From a virus, in IMG/VR virus record IMGVR_UViG_3300030108_004965, positions 96,001 to 160,000 of that record: DNA of 64,000 bases, one strand, 5' to 3'. Numbering within the stretch: the first letter of the stretch is position 1; each line of letters starts with the position of its first letter. The notes under the pieces are model-generated. The model was not told where the DNA came from and did not search any database. It worked only from the letters and a program-made list of their open reading frames with translations. Positions 1 through 38,996 of the stretch are shown here, one piece after another. The position numbers and the translations under genes were made by a program.

Positions 1-36
1 ATCTTCGTTGTATCTTACTAAATCACCTACTTCCAT
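1..36 (-). CDS. SH3/KOW-like minigene, N-terminus only (runs off window)
   Basis: Repeat-encoded RBS GGAGGTG and ATG at 36; MEVGDLVRYNED... Confidence 0.7.
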   Translation of the reverse strand, partial: MEVGDLVRYNED

Positions 37-202
37 TTATCACCTCCAAGTTTTCTTTTCGTTCATAACTGCTTTTTTGATTGCTCCACTGGATCAGGCA
101 CTGTTCCACTATCCCGAATGGGGTATATCCAAGCCGTTTCCTAACGACAATACCAAACAACCACTTTGTGTGCTTGGGGCTTACTAAATCACCTACTTCC
201 AT
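23..202 (-). CDS. SH3/KOW-like miniprotein, 59 aa
   Basis: Hand translation: MEVGDLVSPKHTKWLFGIVVRKRLGYTPFGIVEQCLIQWSNQKSSYERKENLEVINGSR; below ORF-track cutoff. Confidence 0.8.
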   Translation of the reverse strand: MEVGDLVSPKHTKWLFGIVVRKRLGYTPFGIVEQCLIQWSNQKSSYERKENLEVINGSR

Positions 203-350
203 TTATCACCTCCATATCGCTTGGGTTCATAAATCCCAAATCTCCACAAGACCATTGTACCCACCAGCCACCTGTGTTGTGCTTGACAATAATACCTGTC
301 CTGTTGCACCCATACTTTGACTTCATCTTTACTAAATCACCTACTTTCAT
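189..350 (-). CDS. SH3/KOW-like miniprotein, 53 aa
   Basis: MKVGDLVKMKSKYGCNRTGIIV...WVQWSCGD...MEVINGSR; start reassigned to the ATG after GGAGGT. Confidence 0.8.
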   Translation of the reverse strand: MKVGDLVKMKSKYGCNRTGIIVKHNTGGWWVQWSCGDLGFMNPSDMEVINGSR

Positions 351-526
351 ATTACCTCCAACTGAGTTGGGAAATACATTCCGTACTTTCCTGTGTTGAG
401 CCACAAAACTCTCGTTCTTTGAAACTGGCCAGTTGGTGACATTGATCCTTCTATGACCATGCCAAACCAGTTTGATTTGTCGTGAGAGGTTTTGTGCCTA
501 AACTTTACCAAATCACCTACTTTCAT
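347..526 (-). CDS. SH3/KOW-like miniprotein, 59 aa
   Basis: MKVGDLVKFRHKTSHDKSNWFGMVIEG...RVLWLNTGKYGMYFPTQLEVI; ATGA overlap with next gene. Confidence 0.8.
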   Translation of the reverse strand: MKVGDLVKFRHKTSHDKSNWFGMVIEGSMSPTGQFQRTRVLWLNTGKYGMYFPTQLEVI

Positions 527-689
527 TTATCACCTCCACATGATAACTGCCGCCAGTTGTAATGCGGCCATCACCCCACTGAATACGGTAAATCCAATGA
601 ACAGGGTTTACTTGTTTCTTCTTGCTTATTACAATCCCAACACCTTGTTTCGGGTTGGTTGTTAGTTTTACCAAATCACCTACTTCCAT
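513..689 (-). CDS. SH3/KOW-like miniprotein, 58 aa
   Basis: MEVGDLVKLTNPKQGVGIVISKK...YRIQWGDGRITTGGSYHVEVINESR. Confidence 0.8.
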   Translation of the reverse strand: MEVGDLVKLTTNPKQGVGIVISKKKQVNPVHWIYRIQWGDGRITTGGSYHVEVINESR

Positions 690-828
690 TTATCACCTCC
701 AGTGATGTTAAAGGGCATAGGTAGATTTCATTATTGAACATAACACAGCAGTCACCATTTCTTCTTATCTCTACAAGAACACCGATGGTTGGGTCATTCG
801 CAAACAAAACTAAATCACCTATATTCAT
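676..828 (-). CDS. SH3/KOW-like miniprotein, 50 aa
   Basis: MNIGDLVLFANDPTIGVLVEIRRNGDCCVMFNNEIYLCPLTSLEVINGSR. Confidence 0.8.
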   Translation of the reverse strand: MNIGDLVLFANDPTIGVLVEIRRNGDCCVMFNNEIYLCPLTSLEVINGSR

Positions 829-829
829 A

Positions 830-1201
830 TCAATACCCCACTTGTATTTCACGCTTGACATGGATCTCACTTTCCCACCAGTCGCCACGATACTCTATGT
901 CTTCGAGTTCTTCGCCAATGCGGAGGAAGCGAAACTTTTCTCTTTTTTCAACATCTTCCTCCATAGCGTCCATAAACTTCTCAAACATTTGAATGTCTTC
1001 AAACTCATTGAAGGTGGTATACCATTTTATACTATTGCACGTAAAGAGCCAATGCCCCTCGCATTGATAGTCTTTATCGAACTCAAAGTCAGACATATCT
1101 CCAAAGATTTGAGCCATGAGTTCTTCTGTTTTGAGAAAGGTGAGGAAGTCACCTTGTAAGTCTTTGTGTATTGCTATTGCAACGTCTGATCTGTATCCCA
1201 T
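830..1201 (-). CDS. Hypothetical acidic protein, 123 aa
   Basis: RBS AGGAGGTG; promoter directly upstream. Confidence 0.8.
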   Translation of the reverse strand: MGYRSDVAIAIHKDLQGDFLTFLKTEELMAQIFGDMSDFEFDKDYQCEGHWLFTCNSIKWYTTFNEFEDIQMFEKFMDAMEEDVEKREKFRFLRIGEELEDIEYRGDWWESEIHVKREIQVGY

Positions 1202-1220
1202 TGGACACCTCCTGTTTGTT

Positions 1221-1260
1221 GGTTATACTATAAGTGTATCACGACCAGCCAAAAAAGCAA
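1221..1260 (-). promoter_or_regulatory. Putative sigma70-type promoter, class with downstream ATAGTATAACC
   Basis: TTGCTT-16-TACACT with extended -10 TG, then ATAGTATAACC. Confidence 0.6.
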
Positions 1261-1262
1261 GG

Positions 1263-1448
1263 TCATTTTTTGTCCGTTTTTATTATTCTTAATTCGACCT
1301 CGGCAATCTCGGAGATAACTCCATCGTTCCACCAAACTCTATACCATCTGTTCCCTGTGTACATGTGCGAAGAGATTACAATGCCGATCTTCTTTGTGTT
1401 GCTCCAAGTCCAGATAAACTCGACAAGTTCACCGTTCTGGATCATCAT
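1263..1448 (-). CDS. SH3/KOW-like miniprotein, 61 aa
   Basis: NGELVEF...GIVI...YRVWWNDG...ELRII pattern. Confidence 0.75.
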   Translation of the reverse strand: MMIQNGELVEFIWTWSNTKKIGIVISSHMYTGNRWYRVWWNDGVISEIAEVELRIIKTDKK

Positions 1449-1626
1449 TTAAGGCCATTAGTTCACAGTCTATAAGGTCAATCCCTTCAGTTCCATCTGC
1501 CCACAAAACATCGTAAGTTGTCTGATTGAATGTATTTAACTCTGGGCTTGTTATATCCGAAACGATCCCGATCATTCCGTGGTCTGCGTCGTATTGTATC
1601 CACATAACTAAATCACCTATTTTCAT
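1429..1626 (-). CDS. SH3/KOW-like miniprotein, 65 aa
   Basis: MKIGDLVMW...GIV...YDVLWADG. Confidence 0.8.
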   Translation of the reverse strand: MKIGDLVMWIQYDADHGMIGIVSDITSPELNTFNQTTYDVLWADGTEGIDLIDCELMALNDDPER

Positions 1627-1783
1627 TTATCACCTCCAATCCACTGGTGTACATTCCAGACCTGCTTCCGCACTGCCAGAACACCACGGCATATTCCTGA
1701 GCATGCACATGAAAACACAATATGTTCTCTACTATTCCGTACTGTTCGTGTTCTTTGTGTTTTACTAAATCACCTACTTTCAT
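1613..1783 (-). CDS. SH3/KOW-like miniprotein, 56 aa
   Basis: MKVGDLVKHKEHEQYGIVENILCFHVHAQEYAVVFWQCGSRSGMYTSGLEVINENR. Confidence 0.8.
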   Translation of the reverse strand: MKVGDLVKHKEHEQYGIVENILCFHVHAQEYAVVFWQCGSRSGMYTSGLEVINENR

Positions 1784-1934
1784 TTATCACCTCCAACCAT
1801 TGGATCTCGATCCAGTAGGTTTTACCACTAGACCAATAAACATTCGCATATCCTTTTGTAACCTCGACAATCATTCCGGTGTCTCCGGCAGAAGGATAAT
1901 CTTCACCTACTATAACTAAATCACCCCTCTCCAT
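1770..1934 (-). CDS. SH3/KOW-like miniprotein, 54 aa
   Basis: MERGDLVIVGEDYPSAGDTGMIVEVTKGYANVYWSSGKTYWIEIQWLEVINESR. Confidence 0.8.
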   Translation of the reverse strand: MERGDLVIVGEDYPSAGDTGMIVEVTKGYANVYWSSGKTYWIEIQWLEVINESR

Positions 1935-2121
1935 CGAACACCTCGTCGATGCTATCTATCTTCTTGATGAAATGCCCAGCAATGTCAGGGTGCTTTACTT
2001 TGAGCCACATGCCCACAATGTCGCACTCCCACATGTCTACAACCTCATAGTACACGGGTTCATAGTTTTGATACACTCCGTACCTTTTTGCTGTTACCTT
2101 ATCGCCTATTTTTATTCGCAT
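1921..2121 (-). CDS. SH3/KOW-like miniprotein, 66 aa
   Basis: MRIKIGDKVTAK...; RBS GGAGGT. Confidence 0.75.
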   Translation of the reverse strand: MRIKIGDKVTAKRYGVYQNYEPVYYEVVDMWECDIVGMWLKVKHPDIAGHFIKKIDSIDEVFDGEG

Positions 2122-2297
2122 AATACCTCCATGCCCCAACTGTCATACGTCCAGCCTCTACCAGATCGCCCGTTTGAGAAAAGAACAACAAAGTAAGATT
2201 TACCCTCCATCCTATATTCTTCCGTCGCAATACCCAACGCACCAACCAATTGTTTGTTGTCGCTTTTTGTGACCATCACTAAACTACCTACTTTCAT
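2112..2297 (-). CDS. SH3/KOW-like miniprotein, 61 aa
   Basis: MKVGSLVMV...LGIA...VVLFSNG...MEVLCE. Confidence 0.8.
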   Translation of the reverse strand: MKVGSLVMVTKSDNKQLVGALGIATEEYRMEGKSYFVVLFSNGRSGRGWTYDSWGMEVLCE

Positions 2298-2445
2298 TTA
2301 TCACCTCCATTCTTCTGGCTGGTGTCCAAGAATGATCCCCATCGTACCAAAGCACCTTGATGGTGAACTCATTCTGGCCAATCTCTGTTACTATTCCCAT
2401 TTGTTCACTATGGAATACATGCTTTACTAAATCACCTACTTTCAT
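2284..2445 (-). CDS. SH3/KOW-like miniprotein, 53 aa
   Basis: MKVGDLVKHVFHSEQMGIVTEIGQNEFTIKVLWYDGDHSWTPARRMEVINESR. Confidence 0.8.
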   Translation of the reverse strand: MKVGDLVKHVFHSEQMGIVTEIGQNEFTIKVLWYDGDHSWTPARRMEVINESR

Positions 2446-2624
2446 GATGCCTCCTGTTTGTCGTCTAAGGGTCTGTAAAAGACCCTCCAGTTAATGTCGC
2501 CAATCTGGCAATACCTGTCTTTGTCTAGGTTGATACAGCCGATATATCCACCAACCAATGATGGTTCTGTGACTACGTATCTGTCGCCTAGATCCTTGTG
2601 TATGTAAATGTCGCCTACTTTCAT
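2442..2624 (-). CDS. SH3/KOW-like miniprotein, 60 aa
   Basis: MKVGDIYIHKDLGDRYVV... Confidence 0.75.
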   Translation of the reverse strand: MKVGDIYIHKDLGDRYVVTEPSLVGGYIGCINLDKDRYCQIGDINWRVFYRPLDDKQEAS

Positions 2625-2782
2625 ATTACCTCCAACAGATCCTTGTGGATACGGAATGTTAGGTTCGGTTTCCTCGATCTGTTCTTCTTATGAATAAAAA
2701 CAGCACAGTGTGTCGAAGATGCACTGACAACGATACCTATTTCTTTTGTGCTTTTGGTCATTACCAAATCTCCTGATTTCAT
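2621..2782 (-). CDS. SH3/KOW-like miniprotein, 53 aa
   Basis: MKSGDLVMTKSTKEIGIVVSASSTHCAVFIHKKNRSRKPNLTFRIHKDLLEVI. Confidence 0.75.
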   Translation of the reverse strand: MKSGDLVMTKSTKEIGIVVSASSTHCAVFIHKKNRSRKPNLTFRIHKDLLEVI

Positions 2783-3120
2783 GATGCTTTCCCCTTGTGA
2801 TTAGAGTTGCCGATGTTCTCTCCAACCTTGGAGAAAGCCACGTTATTAAGACCGCCACGACGTTGGTTATTCCAGCCTCTGTTGGCTTCCCAAGTCTTGC
2901 CGTAAATCTCTGCGTCATCCTCGCTGTCGAAGCGTAGGATCTGCATAGCCGCCATCTTACCATCACCGGTAGTGAAGGCACGAACTCTGCTCTTGATTTC
3001 AAGACCAAGTTCCTCGACGCAATCGGGACACTCGTTGATCTTGCCACCTGCCCGTCGCTTTTTAGGGCATTGCAAACTAAAGTCATCACCGCAGTGAATA
3101 CATTCTCTTATGTGTCTCAT
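2779..3120 (-). CDS. Zn-ribbon protein, 113 aa
   Basis: CIHC...CPDC; RBS CGGAGGTG; promoter upstream. Confidence 0.8.
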   Translation of the reverse strand: MRHIRECIHCGDDFSLQCPKKRRAGGKINECPDCVEELGLEIKSRVRAFTTGDGKMAAMQILRFDSEDDAEIYGKTWEANRGWNNQRRGGLNNVAFSKVGENIGNSNHKGKAS

Positions 3121-3141
3121 TTGACACCTCCGTTTTGTTTG

Positions 3142-3180
3142 GGTTATACTATATCGTATCACGTTGTTAAAATAAATCAA
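3142..3180 (-). promoter_or_regulatory. Putative promoter, ATAGTATAACC class
   Basis: TTGATT-16-TACGAT with extended -10 TG, then ATAGTATAACC. Confidence 0.6.
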
Positions 3181-3401
3181 GGACAAATTATGTCCGAAAA
3201 TGCTTTGTAGAGTGCTGGTGTCCAGTCGCTCGGCTTTATCTCATAGTGAAACATTGATTTCCAAGTCTCACTACAAGTGAAGTCTCCATCGTTCCAAGCC
3301 ACTTGGAACATCTCACGATCATCATCATAATCGACAACAATCCCAATGAAAACGTCATCTGTGTCGCTTCTTACGAAGTCTCCGATCTTGAAGTTATTCA
3401 T
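3177..3401 (-). CDS. SH3/KOW-like miniprotein, 74 aa
   Basis: MNNFKIGDFVR...GIVV...QVAWNDGD. Confidence 0.75.
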   Translation of the reverse strand: MNNFKIGDFVRSDTDDVFIGIVVDYDDDREMFQVAWNDGDFTCSETWKSMFHYEIKPSDWTPALYKAFSDIICP

Positions 3402-3603
3402 AGATACCCCCAAGATGCCTAATTTCATCCGTGTAGTGTGGCTGGATGCGTTCATCATAAACTCCATTCAGCCACTCAACAAGGACTTGTCCATAGCCTT
3501 CTTCTGTTATCACCATGCCTATCGGCAATGTAACATCATTTTCCGATGGATCTGGTGTCCAATGTGCGTCATAAACTAAATCACCAATCTTGAACTCACT
3601 CAT
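3394..3603 (-). CDS. SH3/KOW-like miniprotein, 69 aa
   Basis: MSEFKIGDLVY...GMVI...LVEWLNG. Confidence 0.75.
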   Translation of the reverse strand: MSEFKIGDLVYDAHWTPDPSENDVTLPIGMVITEEGYGQVLVEWLNGVYDERIQPHYTDEIRHLGGIYE

Positions 3604-3853
3604 AATCGCCTCCATCACTGTCGATACCTCCGAAAATCTTCGGATTTCTTTCTTGAACCTGCTTCATACATCGCACTGCTTGCTCATACTGCTCTCTGTA
3701 TTCGTCATTAGGTTCTATCTGATACATAAGTTGCAACTCATGCACACGTTCTTTTATTGCAGTTAGAATAAGAATGTCAACCTGCTCATGTATTGTTGGT
3801 TCTCTTCCTAAGATGGTTTCTAACTCTTGGTTCATTTTTTTAATCGCACTCAT
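3596..3853 (-). CDS. Hypothetical helical protein
   Basis: ORF coupled to neighbours; RBS AAGGAG. Confidence 0.7.
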   Translation of the reverse strand: MSAIKKMNQELETILGREPTIHEQVDILILTAIKERVHELQLMYQIEPNDEYREQYEQAVRCMKQVQERNPKIFGGIDSDGGDYE

Positions 3854-4085
3854 GGCTATCTCCTTTGATTTCCTTGCAATACTTGATAAGACCTTTGTCC
3901 ATCAAGACAGTTTCGTTCTTGATTATATCGTGAAAGCGGTAGTTGTTTATCACAATACCATCGCTCCTTTTTATTGTTTCTTCTCCTATAAATAGAAGCA
4001 TATCCCAGCCACGATCCCATGAGTTGTTATCATAGTTCCATTGGTTCGTTCGCCAACGGCATTTGTATAATAATCCTGCTGTCAT
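3840..4085 (-). CDS. Hypothetical protein
   Basis: RBS AGGAGG; strong promoter upstream. Confidence 0.75.
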   Translation of the reverse strand: MTAGLLYKCRWRTNQWNYDNNSWDRGWDMLLFIGEETIKRSDGIVINNYRFHDIIKNETVLMDKGLIKYCKEIKGDSHECD

Positions 4086-4103
4086 TTTGTCCTCCTGACT
4101 TTG

Positions 4104-4143
4104 GGTTATACTATATTGTATCCCGTTGTGGTTCAGTTGTCAA
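4104..4143 (-). promoter_or_regulatory. Sigma70-type promoter, ATAGTATAACC class
   Basis: TTGACA-17-TACAAT, then ATAGTATAACC. Confidence 0.75.
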
Positions 4144-4226
4144 ATCTTTTCTGTTTCTTTTCCGGACATTTTTTGACCGCCTCACATGTGATAATAAAAG
4201 GATCGCATACATGCGGAATGAGATTG

Positions 4227-4511
4227 CATAGTTATGTTAAATAAATTTTTTTTTGGGGAAATACATAACATAGTTATGTAAAGTTTTTAGATGATAAAAG
4301 TTGTCAAAAAGTTGTCAAATCTTTGTTGCAAAAGGGTCAAAAACGTGTTATATTAGATAATACGGAGGCTTTTGTGTCAAGTGTTTTTTTACAAGGCTCA
4401 CATAGTTATGTTAAGTTTTTATGAGTTATGTAAAGTTTTTTAGACAAAAGCCATAGTTATGTAAAGTTTTTTGGATTTGTTTTACAGATCCCATAGTTAT
4501 GTAAAGTTTTT
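4227..4511. repeat. Six ~20-bp direct repeats CATAGTTATGT(A/T)AAGTTTTT in an AT-rich non-coding gap
   Basis: Copies at 4227 (partial), 4269, 4401, 4423 (variant), 4452 and 4492; palindrome TACATAAC-ATA-GTTATGTA at 4262-4280. Confidence 0.9.
4326..4354 (+). promoter_or_regulatory. Plus-strand sigma70-type promoter inside the repeat block
   Basis: TTGCAA-17-TATATT, same -10 as the minus-strand early promoters. Confidence 0.55.
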
Positions 4512-4828
4512 CAATCCTCATCATCAGAACTATCTTCCTCCCAAAATGAGGGGAAATATGCAAAGTGCCTGTACATTTCTGCGTAATAGGAATAGTCCGT
4601 TTCAAACAATTCACTTTTGAATTCGTAGTCTGGTGCAAAGCCTTTACATGCTACGGATGTTATTTCATTGTTATATACAATTCCATAAACTCCGCTCTCT
4701 AAACAAACACTATAATAAAATCCACGATTTTTATTGGAGCAAATAACAAATTCATCCGTGAGTATGATGCACGTTGATGTTGTTGTGCCATCAGAAATCA
4801 AAACAAGATCACCTTTTTCTACCTTCAC
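4511..4828 (-). CDS. Hypothetical protein, SH3-like N-terminus
   Basis: KGDLVLI...; acidic tail. Confidence 0.7.
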   Translation of the reverse strand: MKVEKGDLVLISDGTTTSTCIILTDEFVICSNKNRGFYYSVCLESGVYGIVYNNEITSVACKGFAPDYEFKSELFETDYSYYAEMYRHFAYFPSFWEEDSSDDED

Positions 4829-5028
4829 TTGCTAGACCATTCGGCTAATTCATGATCCCAAAATGCCAACAAAGACATCGTGAGATCAAAAGCCTGCTGT
4901 TTGTCACTTTCTGATAGGTGTTCAAAATATTGTATCTTCAAACACTGATCGCATAGGCTATCCATGATTTGATCAAGGGTGGCGTAAGGAGGGGAGGAGG
5001 GTAGGGTAGTAGTAGGGTAGTAGGTCAT
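4825..5028 (-). CDS. Hypothetical protein
   Basis: 4-nt overlaps with both neighbours. Confidence 0.6.
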   Translation of the reverse strand: MTYYPTTTLPSSPPYATLDQIMDSLCDQCLKIQYFEHLSESDKQQAFDLTMSLLAFWDHELAEWSSK

Positions 5029-5258
5029 GATTTGTCTTCTAAAATTTCAATTTGGCCATTTTCTACAAGCCTCTTGAAGGTGTCACCACCCATAACAACC
5101 ACATTACCATCATCATAAAAAATTTCGTAATTCGTTTTCCAATTGAACAAAGGTTGCTCTGTCCAAGTACCGGATTTAATCTCGCGATAGATAATTCCAA
5201 CACGCTTTCCGTCTTGTATAAGAGTCCCTAGTTTTACTATGTCAGAGTTTTTTTGCAT
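5025..5258 (-). CDS. Hypothetical SH3-like protein
   Basis: KLGTLI...GII...YEIFYDDG pattern. Confidence 0.65.
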   Translation of the reverse strand: MQKNSDIVKLGTLIQDGKRVGIIYREIKSGTWTEQPLFNWKTNYEIFYDDGNVVVMGGDTFKRLVENGQIEILEDKS

Positions 5259-5958
5259 CCCTCAAGACTACCCTTAAAGTTTCTTGATCCAAAGTTTTAA
5301 TGTTGGATGCAAGTGTTATATGTTCAATCAAAGATGGTAGACCAAAAGGTGCGCCGACTCTAATAGCCGAGAGGACCCCCAGTACCCTACCAGATTCATC
5401 AAACAAAACTGATCCTGAAGAACCCGGCCATGCAAATGTGTTAACCATTAGCGTATCATTGTGTGTGCCCGTTAATAACCCTTCGGAGATGTGCCACCCT
5501 TCTTTGGCTGGGTGCCCACAGTGGTAGACTTTCTCGCCCATCTGGTTGGTAATGTCTCTACGAAATGGTATTGCTTTTGTGTAATTTAATTTTTCTTTAG
5601 GAACAAGTATCGCTATATCTGTATTGTAGTCTGCCAAAATAACTACGGCTTCTGTCATTGCAAAGCCTCTTTCTATAATCGAAACCTCAGTGGCTCCATG
5701 AACAACGTGTGCTGCTGTCATGATGAACCTGTGCTTTCCTAGTTTAAAATAGTTGCCAGACCCTGTGCCGGCTGGTATGTCCCCTTCGAAACTTTGAATA
5801 GCAACTGATGACAGGTATGAAACTTTAAGTCCTCGTGGGGCAAATGGATCTAGTTCAGCAGTATAGCTATCATCATACTCCGGTGACAAATCAATGTCTA
5901 AATGAGCGTTGGCAGGTGGTGTACAAGCCAACATTATAAATAAAATAGTTTTAATCAT
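5242..5958 (-). CDS. Trypsin-like (S1) serine protease with signal peptide
   Basis: TAAHV (His), DIAIL (Asp), GSSGS (Ser); hydrophobic N-terminus. Confidence 0.9.
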   Translation of the reverse strand: MIKTILFIMLACTPPANAHLDIDLSPEYDDSYTAELDPFAPRGLKVSYLSSVAIQSFEGDIPAGTGSGNYFKLGKHRFIMTAAHVVHGATEVSIIERGFAMTEAVVILADYNTDIAILVPKEKLNYTKAIPFRRDITNQMGEKVYHCGHPAKEGWHISEGLLTGTHNDTLMVNTFAWPGSSGSVLFDESGRVLGVLSAIRVGAPFGLPSLIEHITLASNIKTLDQETLRVVLRDAKKL

Positions 5959-6602: not shown

Positions 6603-6950
6603 TTATTTCCTCCCATGATCATCTTGGATACGCACCACATCATGTATCTCACTAGTAGATACCTCAATGATCTTTACATCAGTTCCTTGGGAAGCGCAAA
6701 ATCTGTGTACAGTTAGTGGAGAGATGTGGTAAGTGTCTCCGGGATTTAAGATAAGTCTGGTTTCTTCTCTTCTAGATCCTTCTTCCAAGACCAATTCCAT
6801 AATACCCTCTAAAACCATAATTGTTTCCTCTTTCACTTTGTGAAATTGTAGAGACAACCTTTTTCCTTTTTTGATATGTAAGATTTTTCCAACATACTTT
6901 TCTGTTAGTGCCCAAATGTTTTCGTGGCCCCAAGGTTTATTAACAATCAT
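6603..6950 (-). CDS. Cupin-domain protein (mannose-6-phosphate isomerase type II-like)
   Basis: KPWGHE...LSLQFH..KEET...G...TVHRF. Confidence 0.85.
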   Translation of the reverse strand: MIVNKPWGHENIWALTEKYVGKILHIKKGKRLSLQFHKVKEETIMVLEGIMELVLEEGSRREETRLILNPGDTYHISPLTVHRFCASQGTDVKIIEVSTSEIHDVVRIQDDHGRK

Positions 6951-7399
6951 TTTATCTCCTTCATATATAATCTAAGCGCAGTTTCAACTCTCTCCGCGTA
7001 TTCTTCAAGATTTATTTCTATTCCATTTTTGAGCGCATAATCATAACCTAAGTGCCAAGCAAGGGCTTCCTCAAATAATTGTATACGCCTGTGTTCTTTT
7101 AGTCTGTTGCTCTCGTGAAAAATAACGTGGCCTATCTCGTGAGCCAAAGATACAAGTTTTTCAAATTCATCTTGGTCATCTCCGATGTCTATTATACCTT
7201 CGCACTCTAACTCTTCTATTTCATCCTCCGGTGTAGGAACCCAATAGGAGTTTGATCCGGGGGCACACTCAACACTGATATTGAAATCATACTCTGCTCT
7301 CTCCATCAGTAGAGCAAATTTCTGTTTCAATATCTTTTTTGGTGAAGTACTTGATAAGATCCGTATAACCTCCAATGAATTTTTCTTCGCCTTTTTCAT
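6947..7399 (-). CDS. HEXXH metallopeptidase-like protein (ImmA/IrrE-like)
   Basis: SLAHEIGH...EEALAW. Confidence 0.65.
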   Translation of the reverse strand: MKKAKKNSLEVIRILSSTSPKKILKQKFALLMERAEYDFNISVECAPGSNSYWVPTPEDEIEELECEGIIDIGDDQDEFEKLVSLAHEIGHVIFHESNRLKEHRRIQLFEEALAWHLGYDYALKNGIEINLEEYAERVETALRLYMKEIK

Positions 7400-8651: not shown

Positions 8652-10220
8652 TCAACAAGCCACAATAGCATGGGACGTTGTCAATAAAGTTCCCGCAGCA
8701 CTCGTAGCATTACGCAAAGCGCACTTGGTAACTTTACAAGGATCAATGATTCCTTTCTCGTAGGTACTAGTCAGTTCCCTATTCAAAAAATCATAGCCAA
8801 TATCTCCCTCGCATGACTTTACGTTTTTAACTATAATGTCTGCAGACTCTCCAGCATTTGTTGCCATTTGTCTCAAAGGTACCTCGCATGCCTTTAGCAC
8901 CACTTGTGCACCCAGAGATTGTTCTTCATTGTCTGTCTCAACAAACAAGCCGGTGGTGGCTCTGAGTAAGGCTACTCCACCGCCCGGTACTATACCCTCT
9001 TCCTGCGCAGACCTAACAGCCTCTAGAGCATCATCAATACGGTGGCGCTTCTCAATCATTTCTACTTCAGTTTGAGCACCCACTTTGATCACCGCTACAC
9101 CCGATGCCAGTCTGGTTATTCTTTCCTGAAGTCTTTCGCACTCAGAAAGATTGTCTGTTTGTTTTATCAGTGCCTTTACGGTCTCGATTGTATCATCAAT
9201 CTTTTGATTATTTCCCTTGCCTCCGACAACTGTTGTCCAAGTCTTGGTTATATTAATGTTTTTGCATTGCCCAAAGTGATTGAGGGTAACATCTTTTAAG
9301 GTCAGAGAGTTCTCTCTTGTAATGAATGTTGCTCCTGTGCTGACGCACAAGTCCTTCATTATGTTTCTTCTCTCCTCTCCATACTTTGGTGCTTTGATAG
9401 CACACACCTTCATTGTACCACGGACTGCATTGGCAATGAAAGCAGCAAGGGCTTGACCTTCAATGTCGTTTGATATCAAAACCAATGGACGATTGTCTCT
9501 TGCGGCAAGTTCGAGTACTTTCATTACCTGTTCAATGTGTTCAACCTTTTCATCTGTCACAAGAATAAGCGGATTGTCATAGTTCACCATTGCGTTTCTT
9601 TGGTCTGTGATAAAGGTGTTGCTAGCATACCCAGAATCGAATCTAAAGCCTTCAATAAGGTCTAGTGATGTATTCATACTCCGAGCCTCTTCAACGAGCA
9701 CAGAACCATCTTTACCGGCTTTGTCAATAGCGGTTGCAATAAGTTTACCAATTGATTTATCATTGTTGGCAGAGATGGTTGCAATGTGTCTTATGTCCTC
9801 GACAGTTTGAATGGGTCTCGACATTTCTGTGAGTTTCTCTGTGATAACTTCGACTGCTTTATCCATGCCACGTTTTAATTCAACAGGAGATACACCTGCT
9901 GTCATATACTTTTGTGCTTCTTTTAAGATCGCACGAGACAATACTGTTGCGGTGGTTGTTCCATCACCAGCAGAGTTCACTGTTTCTTCTGCTGCTTGCT
10001 TGATCACTTGTGCTCCAAGGTTTTGGAACGGGTCTTCAAGTTCAATGAACTTTGCAATTGTCACACCATCTTTGGTGATGACAGGTAGATTCTCTTCTTT
10101 ATGGTATAGTGCTACATTCCGCCCTCGAGGACCGAGAGTGGTTGCAACATTATCCGCAAGAATGTCAACTCCCTCCAGAATCTTTTGGTTGAGAGTTTGT
10201 CCTTGGTCATAATGTTTCAT
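8652..10220 (-). CDS. groEL: Chaperonin GroEL
   Basis: TLGPRGRNV, ITKDGVTIAK, AGDGTTTAT, EEGIVPGGG, GIIDP; no GGM tail. Confidence 0.98.
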   Translation of the reverse strand: MKHYDQGQTLNQKILEGVDILADNVATTLGPRGRNVALYHKEENLPVITKDGVTIAKFIELEDPFQNLGAQVIKQAAEETVNSAGDGTTTATVLSRAILKEAQKYMTAGVSPVELKRGMDKAVEVITEKLTEMSRPIQTVEDIRHIATISANNDKSIGKLIATAIDKAGKDGSVLVEEARSMNTSLDLIEGFRFDSGYASNTFITDQRNAMVNYDNPLILVTDEKVEHIEQVMKVLELAARDNRPLVLISNDIEGQALAAFIANAVRGTMKVCAIKAPKYGEERRNIMKDLCVSTGATFITRENSLTLKDVTLNHFGQCKNINITKTWTTVVGGKGNNQKIDDTIETVKALIKQTDNLSECERLQERITRLASGVAVIKVGAQTEVEMIEKRHRIDDALEAVRSAQEEGIVPGGGVALLRATTGLFVETDNEEQSLGAQVVLKACEVPLRQMATNAGESADIIVKNVKSCEGDIGYDFLNRELTSTYEKGIIDPCKVTKCALRNATSAAGTLLTTSHAIVAC

Positions 10221-12724: not shown

Positions 12725-13360
12725 CTATAGCACCTCGTCTGCCATGCCTCTTTCAATAGCCTCATCCGCTGATAAATAAACGTTTGAGTTCTTATTAATT
12801 AGTGTTTGAATCTGTCTTTTTGTCATCGAAGACTCCTCAGACAAACACTGCAAGTATATGTCTTGAAGATGATGCATGTTTTCCACCTCATTTTTCATAT
12901 GCTTAAGGTCTCCCATGTAACCAGCATTGACTGAGTGCAACATGATTTGGCAGTGTTTTCCGAGTTTTCTTTTGCCTTTGGTACCGGCTGCTAAAATTAG
13001 AGTTCCGGCGGACATTACCTTGCCAATGCCAATTGTTTCAATGTCACAAAACTGTTTGCACCAGTTCATAACATCATATACCCCAAACATTTCATGAGCC
13101 GATCCGCCAAAGGTTGAAACATAAATTTTTATATCCTCGGCTCTCTCTGCTTCTGGTTCTTTCTCTTGAGCAAGCACCAAAAGTGCTGAAATTAAGTCTG
13201 CTGTTTTCTCTTCGTTGACCTCTCCAACAAACATAATGCTTCTCTGTTCTGGGCCTTTGCTTAGAGACCCTAGGAGATCTACAACCGTTTGTGTTTCTTG
13301 TTCTCCGACCTCTTCAATTGATGACTCAGATTTTTTTGTTTTCTTTTTTCCAAAATACAT
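12725..13360 (-). CDS. clpP: ClpP-like protease subunit
   Basis: YVSTFGGS, GKVMSAG (Ser), IMLH (His), YLSADEA..G.AD. Confidence 0.9.
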   Translation of the reverse strand: MYFGKKKTKKSESSIEEVGEQETQTVVDLLGSLSKGPEQRSIMFVGEVNEEKTADLISALLVLAQEKEPEAERAEDIKIYVSTFGGSAHEMFGVYDVMNWCKQFCDIETIGIGKVMSAGTLILAAGTKGKRKLGKHCQIMLHSVNAGYMGDLKHMKNEVENMHHLQDIYLQCLSEESSMTKRQIQTLINKNSNVYLSADEAIERGMADEVL

Positions 13361-36667: not shown

Positions 36668-37789
36668 TTATTTTTCTTTGTCGACATCAAAGTTCTTACC
36701 TTCGGTATCGAACTTCTTAATTATCTCTTCATCCATAATCTCAAAGACCAGAGATTTAAACTTTTGATCTTTTAGTTTATCTAACCAAGAGGATGATCGG
36801 AACTTATGTTCCTTACCTTTAGCGTCGGTAAGGTAGTACCAGCCGCCCCCTACCCGAAAACGGTCTGATTGAGATAAACGCAAGGCTTCGAGCCACGATT
36901 CTTCATCTTGAATTCGCGCCTCTCCACCCCACAGGATTTTGAACCCACAAGTTCTTCCTTCCGTTCCAAAGCGAGATTTTTCAACCTTAACCTTGACCTC
37001 AGACCCAATCCGGAGACCAGAGTCGTCAGTAACGTATCCTGCTTTAGCCTTTCGCTTTGTTAACCAAATACGTTGGGAGCAGAAATACTCAATCGCTTTA
37101 CCGCCCGGAGCAATAAACGGGGTTGTCATTGCTTCGGCCACATTGCTTGTGATGTTGGTCTTGAGTTGGTTGATCAAGATTAACGTGCACTGCTGATTAG
37201 CAAGTGGGATTGTTAGTTTCGGAAAAGCCTTAGCAAAAATGCGAGGCTTGACTGCCATGGTAGATTGAGGATTGAAGTCAGATTCAATCTCTTTTTCAGA
37301 AGAGGTAGCAGCAATGCTATCCCAAATGAATAGAAACTGAGTCTCGGGATATTCTCCCATCAAATCCTCAATTGTCTCGAGAACCTTTTCCACAGAAAGA
37401 GCCTGAATGTAGAGTAGCGAGTCTACATCGACTCCCGCAGTCGTAAGAAACTGTGGGTCGATAGCACTTTCAGCATCGAAGTAAACCACAGTGTGGCCCA
37501 TCTTCTGTGCATTGGCGGCTATCTGAACTGCCATAAACGATTTTCCGGCTGAGGACAGTCCAGCAATCTCGGTGATTTTCCCAACAGGGATACCACCATA
37601 CCTTCCTCTACACGTTATAGAGTCCAGCCATCTGGATCCTGTAGGGATCCAAGTCTTTACTTCCGTAGGATTATCCTGACGGAGATCGTGCGCAATATCA
37701 ATTCCAACTTGTTTATTAACAAATTTTTTCATTGCACTGATATCAATTTTTCCGGGTTTTGTTTTTTTCATTTTAATTACTTTTCCCAA
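36668..37789 (-). CDS. recA: RecA/UvsX recombinase
   Basis: IPTGS, GKITEIAGLSSAGKS, FDAE, WDSIAA, INQLK, PGGKA, VEKSR; TTG start after AGGAG. Confidence 0.95.
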   Translation of the reverse strand: MGKVIKMKKTKPGKIDISAMKKFVNKQVGIDIAHDLRQDNPTEVKTWIPTGSRWLDSITCRGRYGGIPVGKITEIAGLSSAGKSFMAVQIAANAQKMGHTVVYFDAESAIDPQFLTTAGVDVDSLLYIQALSVEKVLETIEDLMGEYPETQFLFIWDSIAATSSEKEIESDFNPQSTMAVKPRIFAKAFPKLTIPLANQQCTLILINQLKTNITSNVAEAMTTPFIAPGGKAIEYFCSQRIWLTKRKAKAGYVTDDSGLRIGSEVKVKVEKSRFGTEGRTCGFKILWGGEARIQDEESWLEALRLSQSDRFRVGGGWYYLTDAKGKEHKFRSSSWLDKLKDQKFKSLVFEIMDEEIIKKFDTEGKNFDVDKEK

Positions 37790-37847
37790 TTTGTTCTCCT
37801 GTAAATAGTGAGGCATCTTTAAACCCATGCCTCCCTGCGGTGTAAAT

Positions 37848-38996
37848 TTATTTTGCCGCGTTCTGTACGGGGAACTGGATTCCGTATACAGAAGGCTGTG
37901 TAACAATCTCATTCCAAATTGTCGACTGTCGTCTCTTTCTGTAGTCACCATTCCAGTTCAAACGCATTTGTTCAAAATAATAATTAGCCTTAACAGTGGG
38001 ACCAGATTTTTCATCTTGAACTTGTTTGTTGCGTGAGTCCTGTTCTAGTTTTGAGTCTAGTTTTGAAACTTCAGATACAAACTTAGATTCATCAGTGATG
38101 ATCATTTTGTTATTAACAATCGACTCGCAGACCAATGTAAAACACAAGTGTTTTTTACTTGGAACGTTATGGACACTGTTAATTGATGTCATCAAATCTA
38201 AAATTTTTGAAGTTTTTAGACTAGAGAAACCACAATATGCTTCAGACCAGCTTAAATTAACTCCATCTTTATAGAGACGATTAAGGGCACCATCACCAAC
38301 ATCAGCTTTTGGGTCAGTACAGTGTACATAAAGCTTAGAAATGAACTGCTCTGGTTTCATTAAAGATAGAGATCTCTTTCCAAATAGAGACTCAAACAGA
38401 GGCACATGTTTTTTGGCCTCACTCCTAGTCCATTCAGACATCTCAGTTTGTAGAGCATTTCTTTTATGCTGGGCTGTTAAGGATTCGCCCTCATTAAGAC
38501 CCAAGAAGATTCGAGACAAATCTTGCTTCTTAACATCTTCAAACACAGTCATACAGATTTGACTATTAAGAAATTTAGTTTGCACAGATTCGGGCAAATC
38601 TTTAAAAAGTTTGTTTCTTACAGAAACTTGATTGCCATCCAAGTCTATAGTAACACCGGTAAATGCAGAGCCCTCTTCATTATTTAGAAAATCACTAATG
38701 CATTTTGTTCTGTGCTTTCCATCTAGACTTATGTACCTAAATTTTCTACCAATCATTTTGGCAAAGTATTCTTCACTAACTACATCGCCTTCGTTTTCTG
38801 CATAAGTACGGCAACTGTTAACGTCTGCTAAGACAATAGGGGTTGCTGCGAATTCAAAGAAAATATCTTGAATAAAACCATTCTTGTTGTTTTTATTCCA
38901 ACAACCGTGAGGTCTCTCGAACGACTCTTCTGTTGTGATAGTTTTGATTATAGACCGGTTATAATCACGAACGGTCTTCGTTTTTTGATCAAACAT
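37848..38996 (-). CDS. DUF262/ParB-like domain protein
   Basis: SLDGKHRT...DF...; IF..LN.G..LT. Confidence 0.7.
   Translation of the reverse strand: MFDQKTKTVRDYNRSIIKTITTEESFERPHGCWNKNNKNGFIQDIFFEFAATPIVLADVNSCRTYAENEGDVVSEEYFAKMIGRKFRYISLDGKHRTKCISDFLNNEEGSAFTGVTIDLDGNQVSVRNKLFKDLPESVQTKFLNSQICMTVFEDVKKQDLSRIFLGLNEGESLTAQHKRNALQTEMSEWTRSEAKKHVPLFESLFGKRSLSLMKPEQFISKLYVHCTDPKADVGDGALNRLYKDGVNLSWSEAYCGFSSLKTSKILDLMTSINSVHNVPSKKHLCFTLVCESIVNNKMIITDESKFVSEVSKLDSKLEQDSRNKQVQDEKSGPTVKANYYFEQMRLNWNGDYRKRRQSTIWNEIVTQPSVYGIQFPVQNAAK

What the first reader, a model, noticed from the sequence alone, without database searches (positions are those of the whole stretch)
1..3603. Cassette-like array of ~17 hypervariable SH3/KOW-type minigenes joined by a triple-function 32-bp repeat
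Seen: about 17 tandem 50-75 aa ORFs share the skeleton M-K-x-G-D-L-V ... G-I-V ... V-x-W-x-D-G ... L-E-V-I but have unrelated interiors. The junction TGGAGGTGATAAATGAAAGTAGGTGATTTAGT recurs nearly intact at least 7 times, with about 4 variants. It reads (L/M)EVINESR-stop in the upstream frame, contains the Shine-Dalgarno GGAGGTG, and reads MKVGDLV in the downstream frame (14-nt overlap). A variant TTGGAGGTAATATGA gives an ATGA overlap. Unit spacing within runs is 139-179 bp. Inference: DNA identity is confined to the junctions, so crossovers in the repeat could insert, delete or reorder whole genes while preserving reading frame, RBS and translational coupling. That would be a self-formatting, integrase-free gene-cassette system diversifying a small beta-barrel scaffold, for example as early anti-defence or host-protein decoys. 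Seven of the genes fall below the 60-aa ORF cutoff.
Basis: partly seen in the sequence, partly recalled or inferred. Interest (0 to 1): 0.88.

Follow-up and report, generated by a model that had tools for sequence, protein, structure and literature searches.

The report
Shuffled mini-barrel gene array in phage
An uncultured 192-kb marine phage carries 38 diverged copies of one tiny barrel-shaped protein gene, chained by a short overlapping stop/ribosome-site/start junction, and related phages have gained, lost and reordered whole copies at that junction; what the proteins do is still unknown.

Summary
On the minus strand of window 1-3603 lie 15 profile-supported 50-74 aa paralogs. A 16th straddles the window start, and one orphan ORF sits in the same junction format. 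The 32-nt junction recurs 7 times with at most 2 mismatches (0 expected). The array is part of a 38-member family spread over about 35 kb of a 191.7-kb phage genome.

A model of one member, built from a 101-sequence alignment, is an SH3/Tudor/KOW-type five-strand barrel (pLDDT 92). No Pfam family is matched.

Orthologous copies are under purifying selection (dN/dS about 0.03-0.36), so these are real genes.

Synonymous sites are free inside the genes but fixed at both ends. The last-strand codons L-E-V-I spell the Shine-Dalgarno GGAGGTGAT of the next gene, and the upstream stop lies inside the next gene's first codons. Three overlap formats occur: -14, -10 and -4.

Five relatives keep the flanking anchor genes in order but differ in cassette number and order. 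Of 70 homology-block ends, 40 fall in the junction against 11 expected.

So the junction is a recombination hot spot. It is most likely conserved for translation, not as a dedicated cassette machine. It is a coding-sequence analogue of PeSL shuffling in T4-like phages. This scan found the same pattern earlier in other phage genomes. The function of the proteins is untested.

The parts
1..36 (-). 3' part... of family member that starts at window 36 and ends beyond the window start (genome 95887-96036, 49 aa, MEVGDLV...EMEVING)
23..202 (-). family member, 59 aa, tail LEVINGSR, -14 overlap with next gene
   Evidence: ortholog group 18 in G001 and G002
189..350 (-). family member, 53 aa, tail MEVINGSR, -14 overlap
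347..526 (-). family member, 59 aa, tail QLEVI, ATGA (-4) overlap
513..689 (-). family member, 58 aa, tail VEVINESR, -14 overlap
676..828 (-). family member, 50 aa (ortholog group 14); sits at another place in G001 and G002
830..1201 (-). unrelated 123-aa gene (anchor 13) that interrupts the array; 78-84% identical in relatives
1263..1445 (-). family member, 60 aa, tail IKTDKK, followed by a 61-nt gap
1429..1626 (-). family member, 65 aa
1613..1783 (-). family member, 56 aa, tail LEVINENR (ortholog group 10; dN/dS 0.03-0.09)
1770..1934 (-). family member, 54 aa, tail LEVINESR
1921..2121 (-). orphan 66-aa ORF (MRIKIGDKV...) in the same junction formats (-10 upstream, -14 downstream); membership not shown
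2112..2297 (-). family member, 61 aa, tail MEVLCE
2284..2445 (-). family member, 53 aa; the one modelled (pLDDT 92.4, five strands)
2442..2624 (-). family member, 60 aa, tail DDKQEAS, ATGA overlap (ortholog group 6)
2621..2782 (-). family member, 53 aa, tail LLEVI, ATGA overlap; 93% identical in G001
2779..3120 (-). unrelated 113-aa CxxC...CxxC protein (anchor 4) that interrupts the array
3177..3401 (-). family member, 74 aa (MNNFKIGDFV...)
3394..3603 (-). family member, 69 aa (MSEFKIGDLV...); absent from G001, L011 and L017
1764..1795 (-). exact copy of the 32-nt junction; other copies at 17-48, 183-214, 507-538, 670-701, 1607-1638, 2278-2309
4115..4143 (-). sigma-70-like promoter (TTGACA-17-TACAAT) upstream of the operon; a second one lies at 4291-4318
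   Evidence: consensus match only
36668..37951 (-). RecA/UvsX-like recombinase gene of the phage (possible agent of the junction crossovers)
   Evidence: PF00154, 136 bits

Best explanation
The stretch is one end of a 38-member family of small (about 50-75 aa) SH3/Tudor/KOW-type beta-barrel proteins. It lies in a variable, probably early-transcribed region of an uncultured marine phage with a distant T4-type capsid.

The genes are packed into translationally coupled runs. The codons of the last barrel strand (L-E-V-I, TTG GAG GTG ATA) spell the Shine-Dalgarno GGAGGTGAT of the next gene. Its ATG follows 4-6 nt after the GGAGG core. The upstream stop either overlaps the ATG (ATGA) or lies inside the next gene's conserved codons: TAG in ATA-GGT, or TGA in GGT-GAT. 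The short tails ...NESR, ...NGSR and ...CK are by-products of this overlap.

Because the same 30-35 nt is repeated dozens of times in one orientation, it acts as a hot spot for homologous recombination, probably by the phage's own RecA/UvsX-like enzyme. That recombination deletes, duplicates, inserts and reorders whole genes without breaking frame or RBS.

The junction is most likely conserved for translation and for the barrel's terminal strands. Shuffling is a consequence, not the selected purpose.

Each copy is a working gene with its own conserved sequence. The copies differ mainly in loop length, loop sequence and charge, which suggests many different binding partners in the host or phage.

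Shown here: the anatomy, the codon-level constraint, the fold of one member, purifying selection, and cassette gain, loss and reordering with block ends at the junction.

Inferred: translational coupling, early expression, the recombination enzyme, and any binding function.
For: Anatomy: 7 near-exact junctions; three overlap formats in G000 and in three other phage lineages.

Family: 38 members in the genome. The alignment profile finds 3714 representative clusters at E<=1e-3, mostly 50-65 aa proteins matched from residue 1. A degenerate junction pattern is found in 21 IMG/VR loci from 19 contigs, and all 19 newly fetched loci hold 2-27 family members on the same strand. The pattern is absent from 185,579 prokaryote species genomes.

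Fold: AF2 pLDDT 92.4, five strands. VIA Z 8.4-6.5 to KOW, Tudor, MIB/HERC2, HspQ, YorP and SH3. Foldseek TM 0.75-0.84.

Codon test on 80 members of four phages:
- Interior conserved Gly, Val and Ile use mixed codons.
- The C-terminal codons are fixed: GAG 60/63, GTG 37/51, ATA 43/50.
- The N-terminal codons are fixed: GTA 35/44, GGT 57/80, TTR 69/76.

Real genes: dN/dS of ortholog interiors is 0.03-0.36, like the anchor genes.

Shuffling:
- Cassette maps of six relatives keep anchors 0, 1, 4, 13, 20, 24 in order, but cassette sets and orders differ.
- 40 of 70 homology-block ends lie within -20..+28 nt of a family ATG, against 11.2 expected and a maximum of 22 in 5000 randomisations.
- An ortholog pair with 85% nt identity is bounded exactly by the ATG and GGAGGT.
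- L017 and L019, from one sample and 98.7% identical, differ by one 168-nt cassette.
- The C-terminal tail changes with the downstream neighbour.

A recombinase gene is present. There is no integrase and no RT.
Against:
- Block ends at gene boundaries would also be seen if random illegitimate events were simply filtered by selection for intact genes.
- Some N-terminal synonymous fixation is not explained by the SD, by the embedded stop, or by the AT bias of start regions. An example is Val-3 GTA at 35/44, against 42% in the first 8 codons of other genes. It leaves room for selection on the DNA itself.
- Block ends are not independent events, and the paralogs share ancestry, so the P values are indicative only.
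- The function of the proteins is unknown.
Confidence: 0.7

Rival explanations
1. Dedicated cassette system. The junction is maintained by selection because it promotes recombination. This would make the array a self-formatting, integrase-free combinatorial library of binders, possibly exchanged between co-infecting phages through excised circles.
For: Synonymous fixation of N-terminal codons 3-7 (GTA GGT GAT TTR GTA) exceeds what the protein, the SD or start-region AT bias predict. It holds even for members with no upstream family gene. Cassette content and order are highly fluid while the anchors stay put. A single-cassette indel occurs between near-identical co-occurring variants. PeSL mini-circles are a precedent (PMC2839356).
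Against: There is no within-genome homogenisation of the junction (0.674 vs 0.657 identity, P 0.12). The overlap format follows neither neighbour, so there is no defined cassette end. The junction has no structured element. The C-terminal half is exactly the anti-SD complement. Circles and recombination rates were not observed.
Confidence: 0.15
2. Translation-only junction with no role for homology. The repeat is conserved only as SD, start context and barrel termini. Rearrangements arise by illegitimate recombination anywhere, and only those falling at gene boundaries survive.
For: The junction consensus is identical across distant lineages. The genes overlap, so only junction break points leave both neighbours intact. 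Patchy mosaic differences outside junctions also occur between L017 and L019.
Against: The L017/L019 indel is flanked by two similar junction copies, with the joint inside the shared ATGA/GCAT stretch. Block ends cluster within about 25 nt of the ATG rather than merely between genes. The phage encodes a RecA/UvsX-like enzyme, and 30-nt direct repeats are known substrates of homologous recombination (general knowledge).
Confidence: 0.13
3. Diversity-generating or other targeted hypermutation creates the variable interiors.
For: The interiors of the paralogs are extremely diverged. A 15-nt loop indel plus clustered changes occur in one cassette between variants that are 98.7% identical.
Against: There is no reverse transcriptase in the genome. 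Orthologs are under purifying selection. Clustered differences also occur in a non-family anchor gene, as expected from mosaic recombination.
Confidence: 0.02

Closest known systems
PeSL (promoter-early stem-loop) mediated modular shuffling in hyperplastic regions of T4-type phages (Arbiol et al. 2010, PMC2839356; Comeau et al. 2014, PMC4122927)
   Same: A short conserved sequence, repeated between small non-essential genes of a variable region, serves as the crossover point. Whole-gene insertion, deletion and replacement between related phages follow, and each gene keeps its expression signals.
   Different: A PeSL is an intergenic element of about 100 bp holding a sigma-70 promoter and a terminator hairpin, and it flanks unrelated ORFans. 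Here the repeat is 30-35 nt of overlapping coding sequence (C-terminus, SD, N-terminus). It has no promoter hexamers and no stable structure. The genes it joins are all paralogs. Circles were not looked for.
Integron gene cassettes (IntI integrase and attC sites)
   Same: A one-orientation array of small promoterless genes whose number and order vary, read from an upstream promoter.
   Different: There is no tyrosine integrase. There is no folded attC-like element and no fixed cassette boundary. The cassettes are paralogs, and the exchange is most likely general homologous recombination.
T4 early proteins GoF, MotB.1 and Frd.2, the 'LSm-like fold' family (Kim et al. 2025, PMC12152347)
   Same: Small early phage proteins of unknown role built on a small bent beta-barrel, recognisable only by structure prediction.
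   Different: There are three dissimilar genes per T4 genome, not dozens of paralogs. Per the paper's abstract, the LSm-like motif is only the N-terminal part of those proteins. Per general knowledge of the Sm fold, it starts with a helix, which the model here lacks. tblastn of one member found no match in 50,697 phage records.
KOW (NusG/Spt5, uL24), Tudor/Agenet and MIB/HERC2 domains, i.e. SH3-like small barrels
   Same: A five-strand barrel of about 50 residues. Best structural matches have Z 8.4-7 and rmsd 1.1-2.2 over 48-53 residues. Weak profile matches exist (uL24 KOW E 0.005; Tudor, KOWx and MIB_HERC2 in 8-9 of 101 members). The profile also picks up tandem Tudor_5/Tudor_3 repeat proteins.
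   Different: No member reaches any Pfam gathering score. The proteins are stand-alone single domains, found so far only in phage and metagenome sequences. No functional residues of those families can be pointed to.
Translationally coupled overlapping genes (ATGA and longer overlaps with the SD inside the upstream gene), a textbook feature of phage and bacterial operons
   Same: The SD lies in the upstream coding sequence and start and stop overlap. This is expected to couple translation along the run.
   Different: The same SD-bearing codons are a conserved structural strand of every copy. In two formats the stop lies 7 or 11 nt downstream of the next ATG, inside conserved codons of the next gene.

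Membership tests
SH3-like small beta-barrel fold (KOW/Tudor/SH3 superfold) | Five antiparallel strands forming a small closed barrel of about 50-60 residues | tested here: met
   AF2 with a 101-sequence alignment gives pLDDT 92.4 and strands 6-9, 16-22, 28-33, 38-42, 46-48. Z is 8.4-6.5 to KOW, Tudor, SH3, HspQ and YorP chains over 45-53 residues. Only one member was modelled with confidence.
KOW motif (Pfam PF00467) | Score over the Pfam gathering threshold | tested here: not met
   1 of 101 members matches, at E 0.0047. None matches among the 10 window proteins scanned.
Tudor-type Pfam families (PF21743, PF18359, PF18115) | Score over the Pfam gathering threshold | tested here: not met
   The best is PF21743 in 9 of 101 members, best E 1.3e-4. 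The one scored window member reaches 21.4 bits against a cut-off of 27.2. The family profile does hit tandem Tudor_5/Tudor_3 repeat proteins, so a distant relation is likely.
PeSL regulatory cassette | Sigma-70-type promoter inside the repeat | tested here: not met
   The promoter scan of 1-5000 finds no minus-strand site in any junction. The only strong ones are upstream, at 4115-4143 and 4291-4318.
PeSL regulatory cassette | Stem-loop terminator inside the repeat | tested here: not met
   Eight junctions folded with 81-nt context give z from -1.83 to +0.93 and share no structure.
PeSL regulatory cassette | Repeat marks the ends of indels and replacements between related phages | tested here: met
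Integron | IntI-type tyrosine recombinase | tested here: not met
   PF00589 finds nothing in the 191.7-kb genome. The control rings in 14 of 14 genomes.
Integron | attC-like imperfect inverted repeat at one fixed end of each cassette | tested here: not met
   The junction has no structure. The overlap format follows neither the upstream nor the downstream body (16/27 and 10/18 same).
Diversity-generating retroelement | Reverse transcriptase | tested here: not met
   PF00078 finds nothing.
T4 LSm-like early protein family (GoF/MotB.1/Frd.2) | N-terminal helix followed by the bent five-strand Sm barrel, and detectable kinship to GoF | tested here: inconclusive
   The model has no helix before strand 1. 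tblastn of one member found nothing in the phage collection. No direct structural comparison with GoF models was possible.

The most novel reading that the evidence does not exclude
The junction is an evolved recombination module. Its N-terminal 15-20 nt (GTA GGT GAT TTR GTA) would be kept at synonymous sites because it lets a marine phage clade swap, amplify and discard members of a pre-diversified library of small binding barrels. This could include exchange between co-infecting phages through excised circles. It would be an integrase-free counterpart of the integron for counter-defence or host-takeover genes.
Probability: 0.15. Interest if true: 0.8.

Novelty: new variant of a known kind. 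Interest (0 to 1): 0.55.

Why it matters
Small phage genes of unknown function are the bulk of viral 'dark matter'. This family alone fills about 3.6% of this genome and has thousands of diverged relatives in ocean metagenomes, yet it has no database name. The locus gives a clean natural example of how one short sequence can serve protein structure, ribosome binding and gene overlap together. As a side effect, it can let a phage reshuffle a gene repertoire without any dedicated enzyme. If the proteins prove to be host- or defence-binding modules, the arrays would be a ready catalogue of natural binders built on a 50-residue scaffold.

Tried and rejected
- Pfam and PHROGs scans of ten window proteins gave nothing over threshold.
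- blastn of 1-3700 and tblastn of one member against 50,697 phage records gave no match.
- The protein atlas returned only unnamed clusters. The nearest named ones (DsrB, R67 DHFR, SH3-C_UBE2O) score below 0.9.
- Foldseek against the PDB gave no match at E<=0.001; all top rows are SH3-like barrels.
- The search for related loci with the alignments failed because no stretch was conserved enough.
So there are no expression data and no read-level search for rearrangement joints.
- RNA structure at the junction is not supported.
- Concerted evolution of the junction within genomes is not supported for the -14 and -4 formats (P 0.12 and 0.44). It is weakly suggested for the -10 format (n=11, P 0.011).
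- Integron-like polarity of cassettes is not supported.
- A DGR is ruled out by the absence of an RT.
- The junction pattern has no match in prokaryote genomes, so there is no prophage or host clue.
- The single-sequence fold of the orphan ORF 1921-2121 was too poor to use.
- I considered programmed +1 frameshifting at AGG-TGA, which would fuse neighbouring barrels into tandem-Tudor proteins. I did not pursue it: the strong SD lies about 10 nt upstream of the site rather than the 3 nt known for prfB (general knowledge), and no test is available here.

Full report
**What is there**

The window is bases 96001-160000 of a single 191,696-bp virus record, rated complete by CheckV. Nearly all long ORFs are on the minus strand. 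The capsid protein is a distant T4-type gp23; its best isolate match is Microcystis phage Mel-JY01 at 35%. The polymerase is DnaE-like. Close relatives come from IMG/VR and from Tara Oceans assemblies held at ENA, so this is an uncultured marine phage.

**The observation**

The 32-nt junction occurs 7 times with 0-2 mismatches, against none in shuffles. A profile built from the copies and iterated on all stop-to-stop frames of the genome finds 38 members, all on the minus strand. They lie between genome 65.1 and 99.7 kb, plus one at 121.0 kb. Fifteen lie wholly in window 1-3603 and one straddles the window start. One orphan ORF (1921-2121) is embedded in the same junction formats, but it has no profile match and only a poor model. 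Two unrelated genes interrupt the run: 830-1201 and 2779-3120.

Three junction formats exist:
- A -14 overlap, ..TGGAGGTGATAAATGRAAGTAGGTGA, giving tails EVINESR or EVINGSR.
- A -10 overlap, GGAGGTAATATGCAAATAG, giving tail EVICK, with the next gene starting MQIG.
- A -4 overlap, GGAGGTAATATGA, giving tail LEVI.

In every format the GGAGG core is made of the L-E-V codons. In the two long overlaps the upstream stop is made of conserved codons of the next gene. The same three formats occur in three other phage lineages.

**The proteins**

No Pfam or PHROG family is matched above threshold. With a 101-sequence alignment, AlphaFold2 gives a confident five-strand barrel (pLDDT 92.4). The last strand is the M/L-E-V motif, and the tail after it has low confidence.

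Structural neighbours are KOW, Tudor, MIB/HERC2, HspQ, YorP, R67 DHFR and SH3 domains at Z 8.4-6.5. No one family stands out. The profile finds 3714 representative clusters at E<=1e-3, mostly 50-65 aa proteins matched from residue 1. It also finds some long proteins made of tandem Tudor_5/Tudor_3 repeats. The pI of the 38 copies runs from 4.1 to 10.1.

**Are they genes?**

I grouped cassettes of G000 and five relatives into ortholog groups at 55% identity or more. I then left out the first 8 and last 6 codons. The interiors give dN/dS of 0.03-0.36, with two pairs near 1. This is the same range as the unrelated anchor genes. So each copy is kept by selection. The diversity is between old paralogs, not ongoing hypermutation. 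There is also no reverse transcriptase.

**Is the junction more conserved than the protein requires?**

Yes. In 80 canonical members from four phages, the conserved interior Gly, Ile and Val columns use mixed codons close to genome usage. The ends are fixed:
- C-terminal codons: TTG 37/55, GAG 60/63, GTG 37/51, ATA 43/50.
- N-terminal codons: GTA 35/44, GGT 57/80, GAT 67/77, TTR 69/76, GTA 44/75.

The C-terminal set spells GGAGGTGAT, the complement of the 16S rRNA 3' end (established knowledge), and so needs no further explanation. The N-terminal set is only partly explained. GGT-GAx supplies the TGA stop in the -14 format, and start regions of other genes in this phage are AT-biased. But those genes use GTA for Val only 42% of the time.

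The junction shows no consistent RNA structure. Junctions are not more alike within a genome than between genomes for the -14 format (0.674 vs 0.657, P 0.12). The shared consensus therefore looks like a common functional constraint rather than local gene conversion.

**Do relatives differ at the junction?**

Yes. G001 is IMGVR_UViG_3300030099_006944, 187 kb, with core genes 70-93% identical. It is collinear with G000, except that long blastn blocks stop at junctions (window 3412..2611, 1638..809, 223..-970), and the gene sets between them differ.

Cassette maps of the loci compared keep anchors 0, 1, 4, 13, 20, 24, 25, 26 in order. The cassettes between them differ in number and order.

Between anchors 4 and 13:

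| Genome | Cassettes |
|---|---|
| G000 | 5 6 7 8 9 10 11 12 |
| G001 | 5 14 28 29 11 30 |
| L011 | 19 6 10 29 63 9 11 12 |
| L017 | 81 82 6 29 83 10 11 12 |

Between anchors 13 and 20:

| Genome | Cassettes |
|---|---|
| G000 | 14 15 16 17 18 19 |
| G001 | 19 18 31 |
| L011 | 14 64 |
| L017 | 14 15 17 |

Further points:
- Of 70 homology-block ends inside the arrays, 40 lie within -20..+28 nt of a family ATG. The expectation is 11.2, and the maximum in 5000 randomisations was 22.
- An ortholog pair (genome 89908-90069 versus L002 11357-11524) is about 85% identical from the ATG to GGAGGT and unrelated outside. It has tail LEVICK in one phage and LEVINGSR in the other.
- More generally, the tail of a given cassette changes with its downstream neighbour.
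- L017 and L019, from one sample and 98.7% identical over 4.6 kb, differ by one 168-nt cassette. The joint lies in the ATGA shared by two similar junction copies.
- The overlap format follows neither the upstream nor the downstream gene body. So crossovers occur on both sides of the spacer, and there is no fixed cassette end.
- The genome encodes a RecA/UvsX-like protein and no tyrosine integrase.

**How widespread is it?**

A degenerate form of the -14 junction occurs in 21 IMG/VR loci from 19 contigs of 15-190 kb. All 19 newly fetched loci hold 2-27 family members on the same strand as the junction. The pattern is absent from one genome each of 185,579 prokaryote species. This scan has already reported comparable arrays in other phage genomes. 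One of those also had a triple-function junction that acts as a swap point. My results on this DNA agree with that reading and were obtained independently of it.

**Reading**

The best-supported account is a large, old paralog family of single-domain barrels in a variable region, probably read from the sigma-70-like promoters at window 4143 and 4318 (consensus matches only). It is packed into translationally coupled runs by a junction that serves as strand codons, SD and overlap all at once.

The repetition of that junction makes it a recombination hot spot. This explains the fluid cassette content. In effect it is a variant of PeSL-mediated modular shuffling (PMC2839356, PMC4122927), but with a coding/RBS repeat instead of a promoter-terminator repeat, and with paralogs instead of unrelated ORFans.

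Whether any part of the conservation is for recombination remains open; the unexplained N-terminal synonymous fixation is the only hint. Nothing here tells what the proteins bind. The spread of charge and loop length across copies that are each conserved suggests many different partners.

Noticed in passing
window 26675-27006 (-): The phage encodes a tmRNA (Rfam RF00023, 92.8 bits; ARAGORN tag ANNNLYFEEALAA). The same region holds a ClpP-like protease (12725-13360), a Cpn60/GroEL-like chaperonin (8652-10220), a trypsin-like peptidase (5242-5958) and an M78 peptidase (6947-7399). Together they form a proteostasis set next to the barrel arrays.
   Followed up: partly
window 4242-4507 (-) and genome 80054-80119 (-): The 16-nt motif ACTTTACATAACTATG is repeated 5 times in the 425-nt non-coding stretch upstream of the operon and 3 times at one other place in the genome, and nowhere else. 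It could be an operator, iteron or phage-specific promoter cluster.
   Followed up: partly
whole genome, minus strand (e.g. window 10270, 17246, 20766, 22122, 22514, 27048): A very uniform promoter-like motif, TTGACA-N15-GTTATATT, occurs about 20 times on the coding strand (30 minus-strand matches to the loose pattern against 6 on the plus strand). The sites upstream of the array (window 4143, genome 83758 and 79942) are a distinct GATACAAT variant.
   Followed up: partly
L017:7474-7638 versus L019:369-548: Two variants that are 98.7% identical differ in one cassette by a 15-nt indel plus clustered changes in the strand1-strand2 loop. Further clustered differences lie in anchor gene 20 and in cassette 23, while 2.3 kb between them is identical. 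This looks like mosaic recombination within one population.
   Followed up: partly
L014:3603-3860 versus L011:12172-12375: Contigs that are 99.9-100% identical differ by a 155-nt insertion with a 55-nt duplicated flank inside cassette 21. This is either a partial internal duplication or an assembly artefact.
   Followed up: no
junction, e.g. window 1764-1795 (-): The junction contains two SD-like heptamers 17 nt apart: GAGGTGAT in the L-E-V-I codons and TAGGTGAT in the V-G-D codons of the next gene. The second has no obvious role.
   Followed up: no
P0121-P0127: The top hits of the family profile are long proteins (322-3762 aa) with 5-12 tandem matches. Four of the seven scanned carry Tudor_5, Tudor_3 or Agenet repeats, and three carry weaker SH3_15, KOW or DUF1918 matches. 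The same kind of barrel therefore also exists as a fused repeat array elsewhere.
   Followed up: partly
L009:9041-11458 (-) = genome 85041-87458: A MoxR-like AAA ATPase and a DUF2201 metallopeptidase/VWA protein pair lies among the upstream barrel arrays.
   Followed up: no
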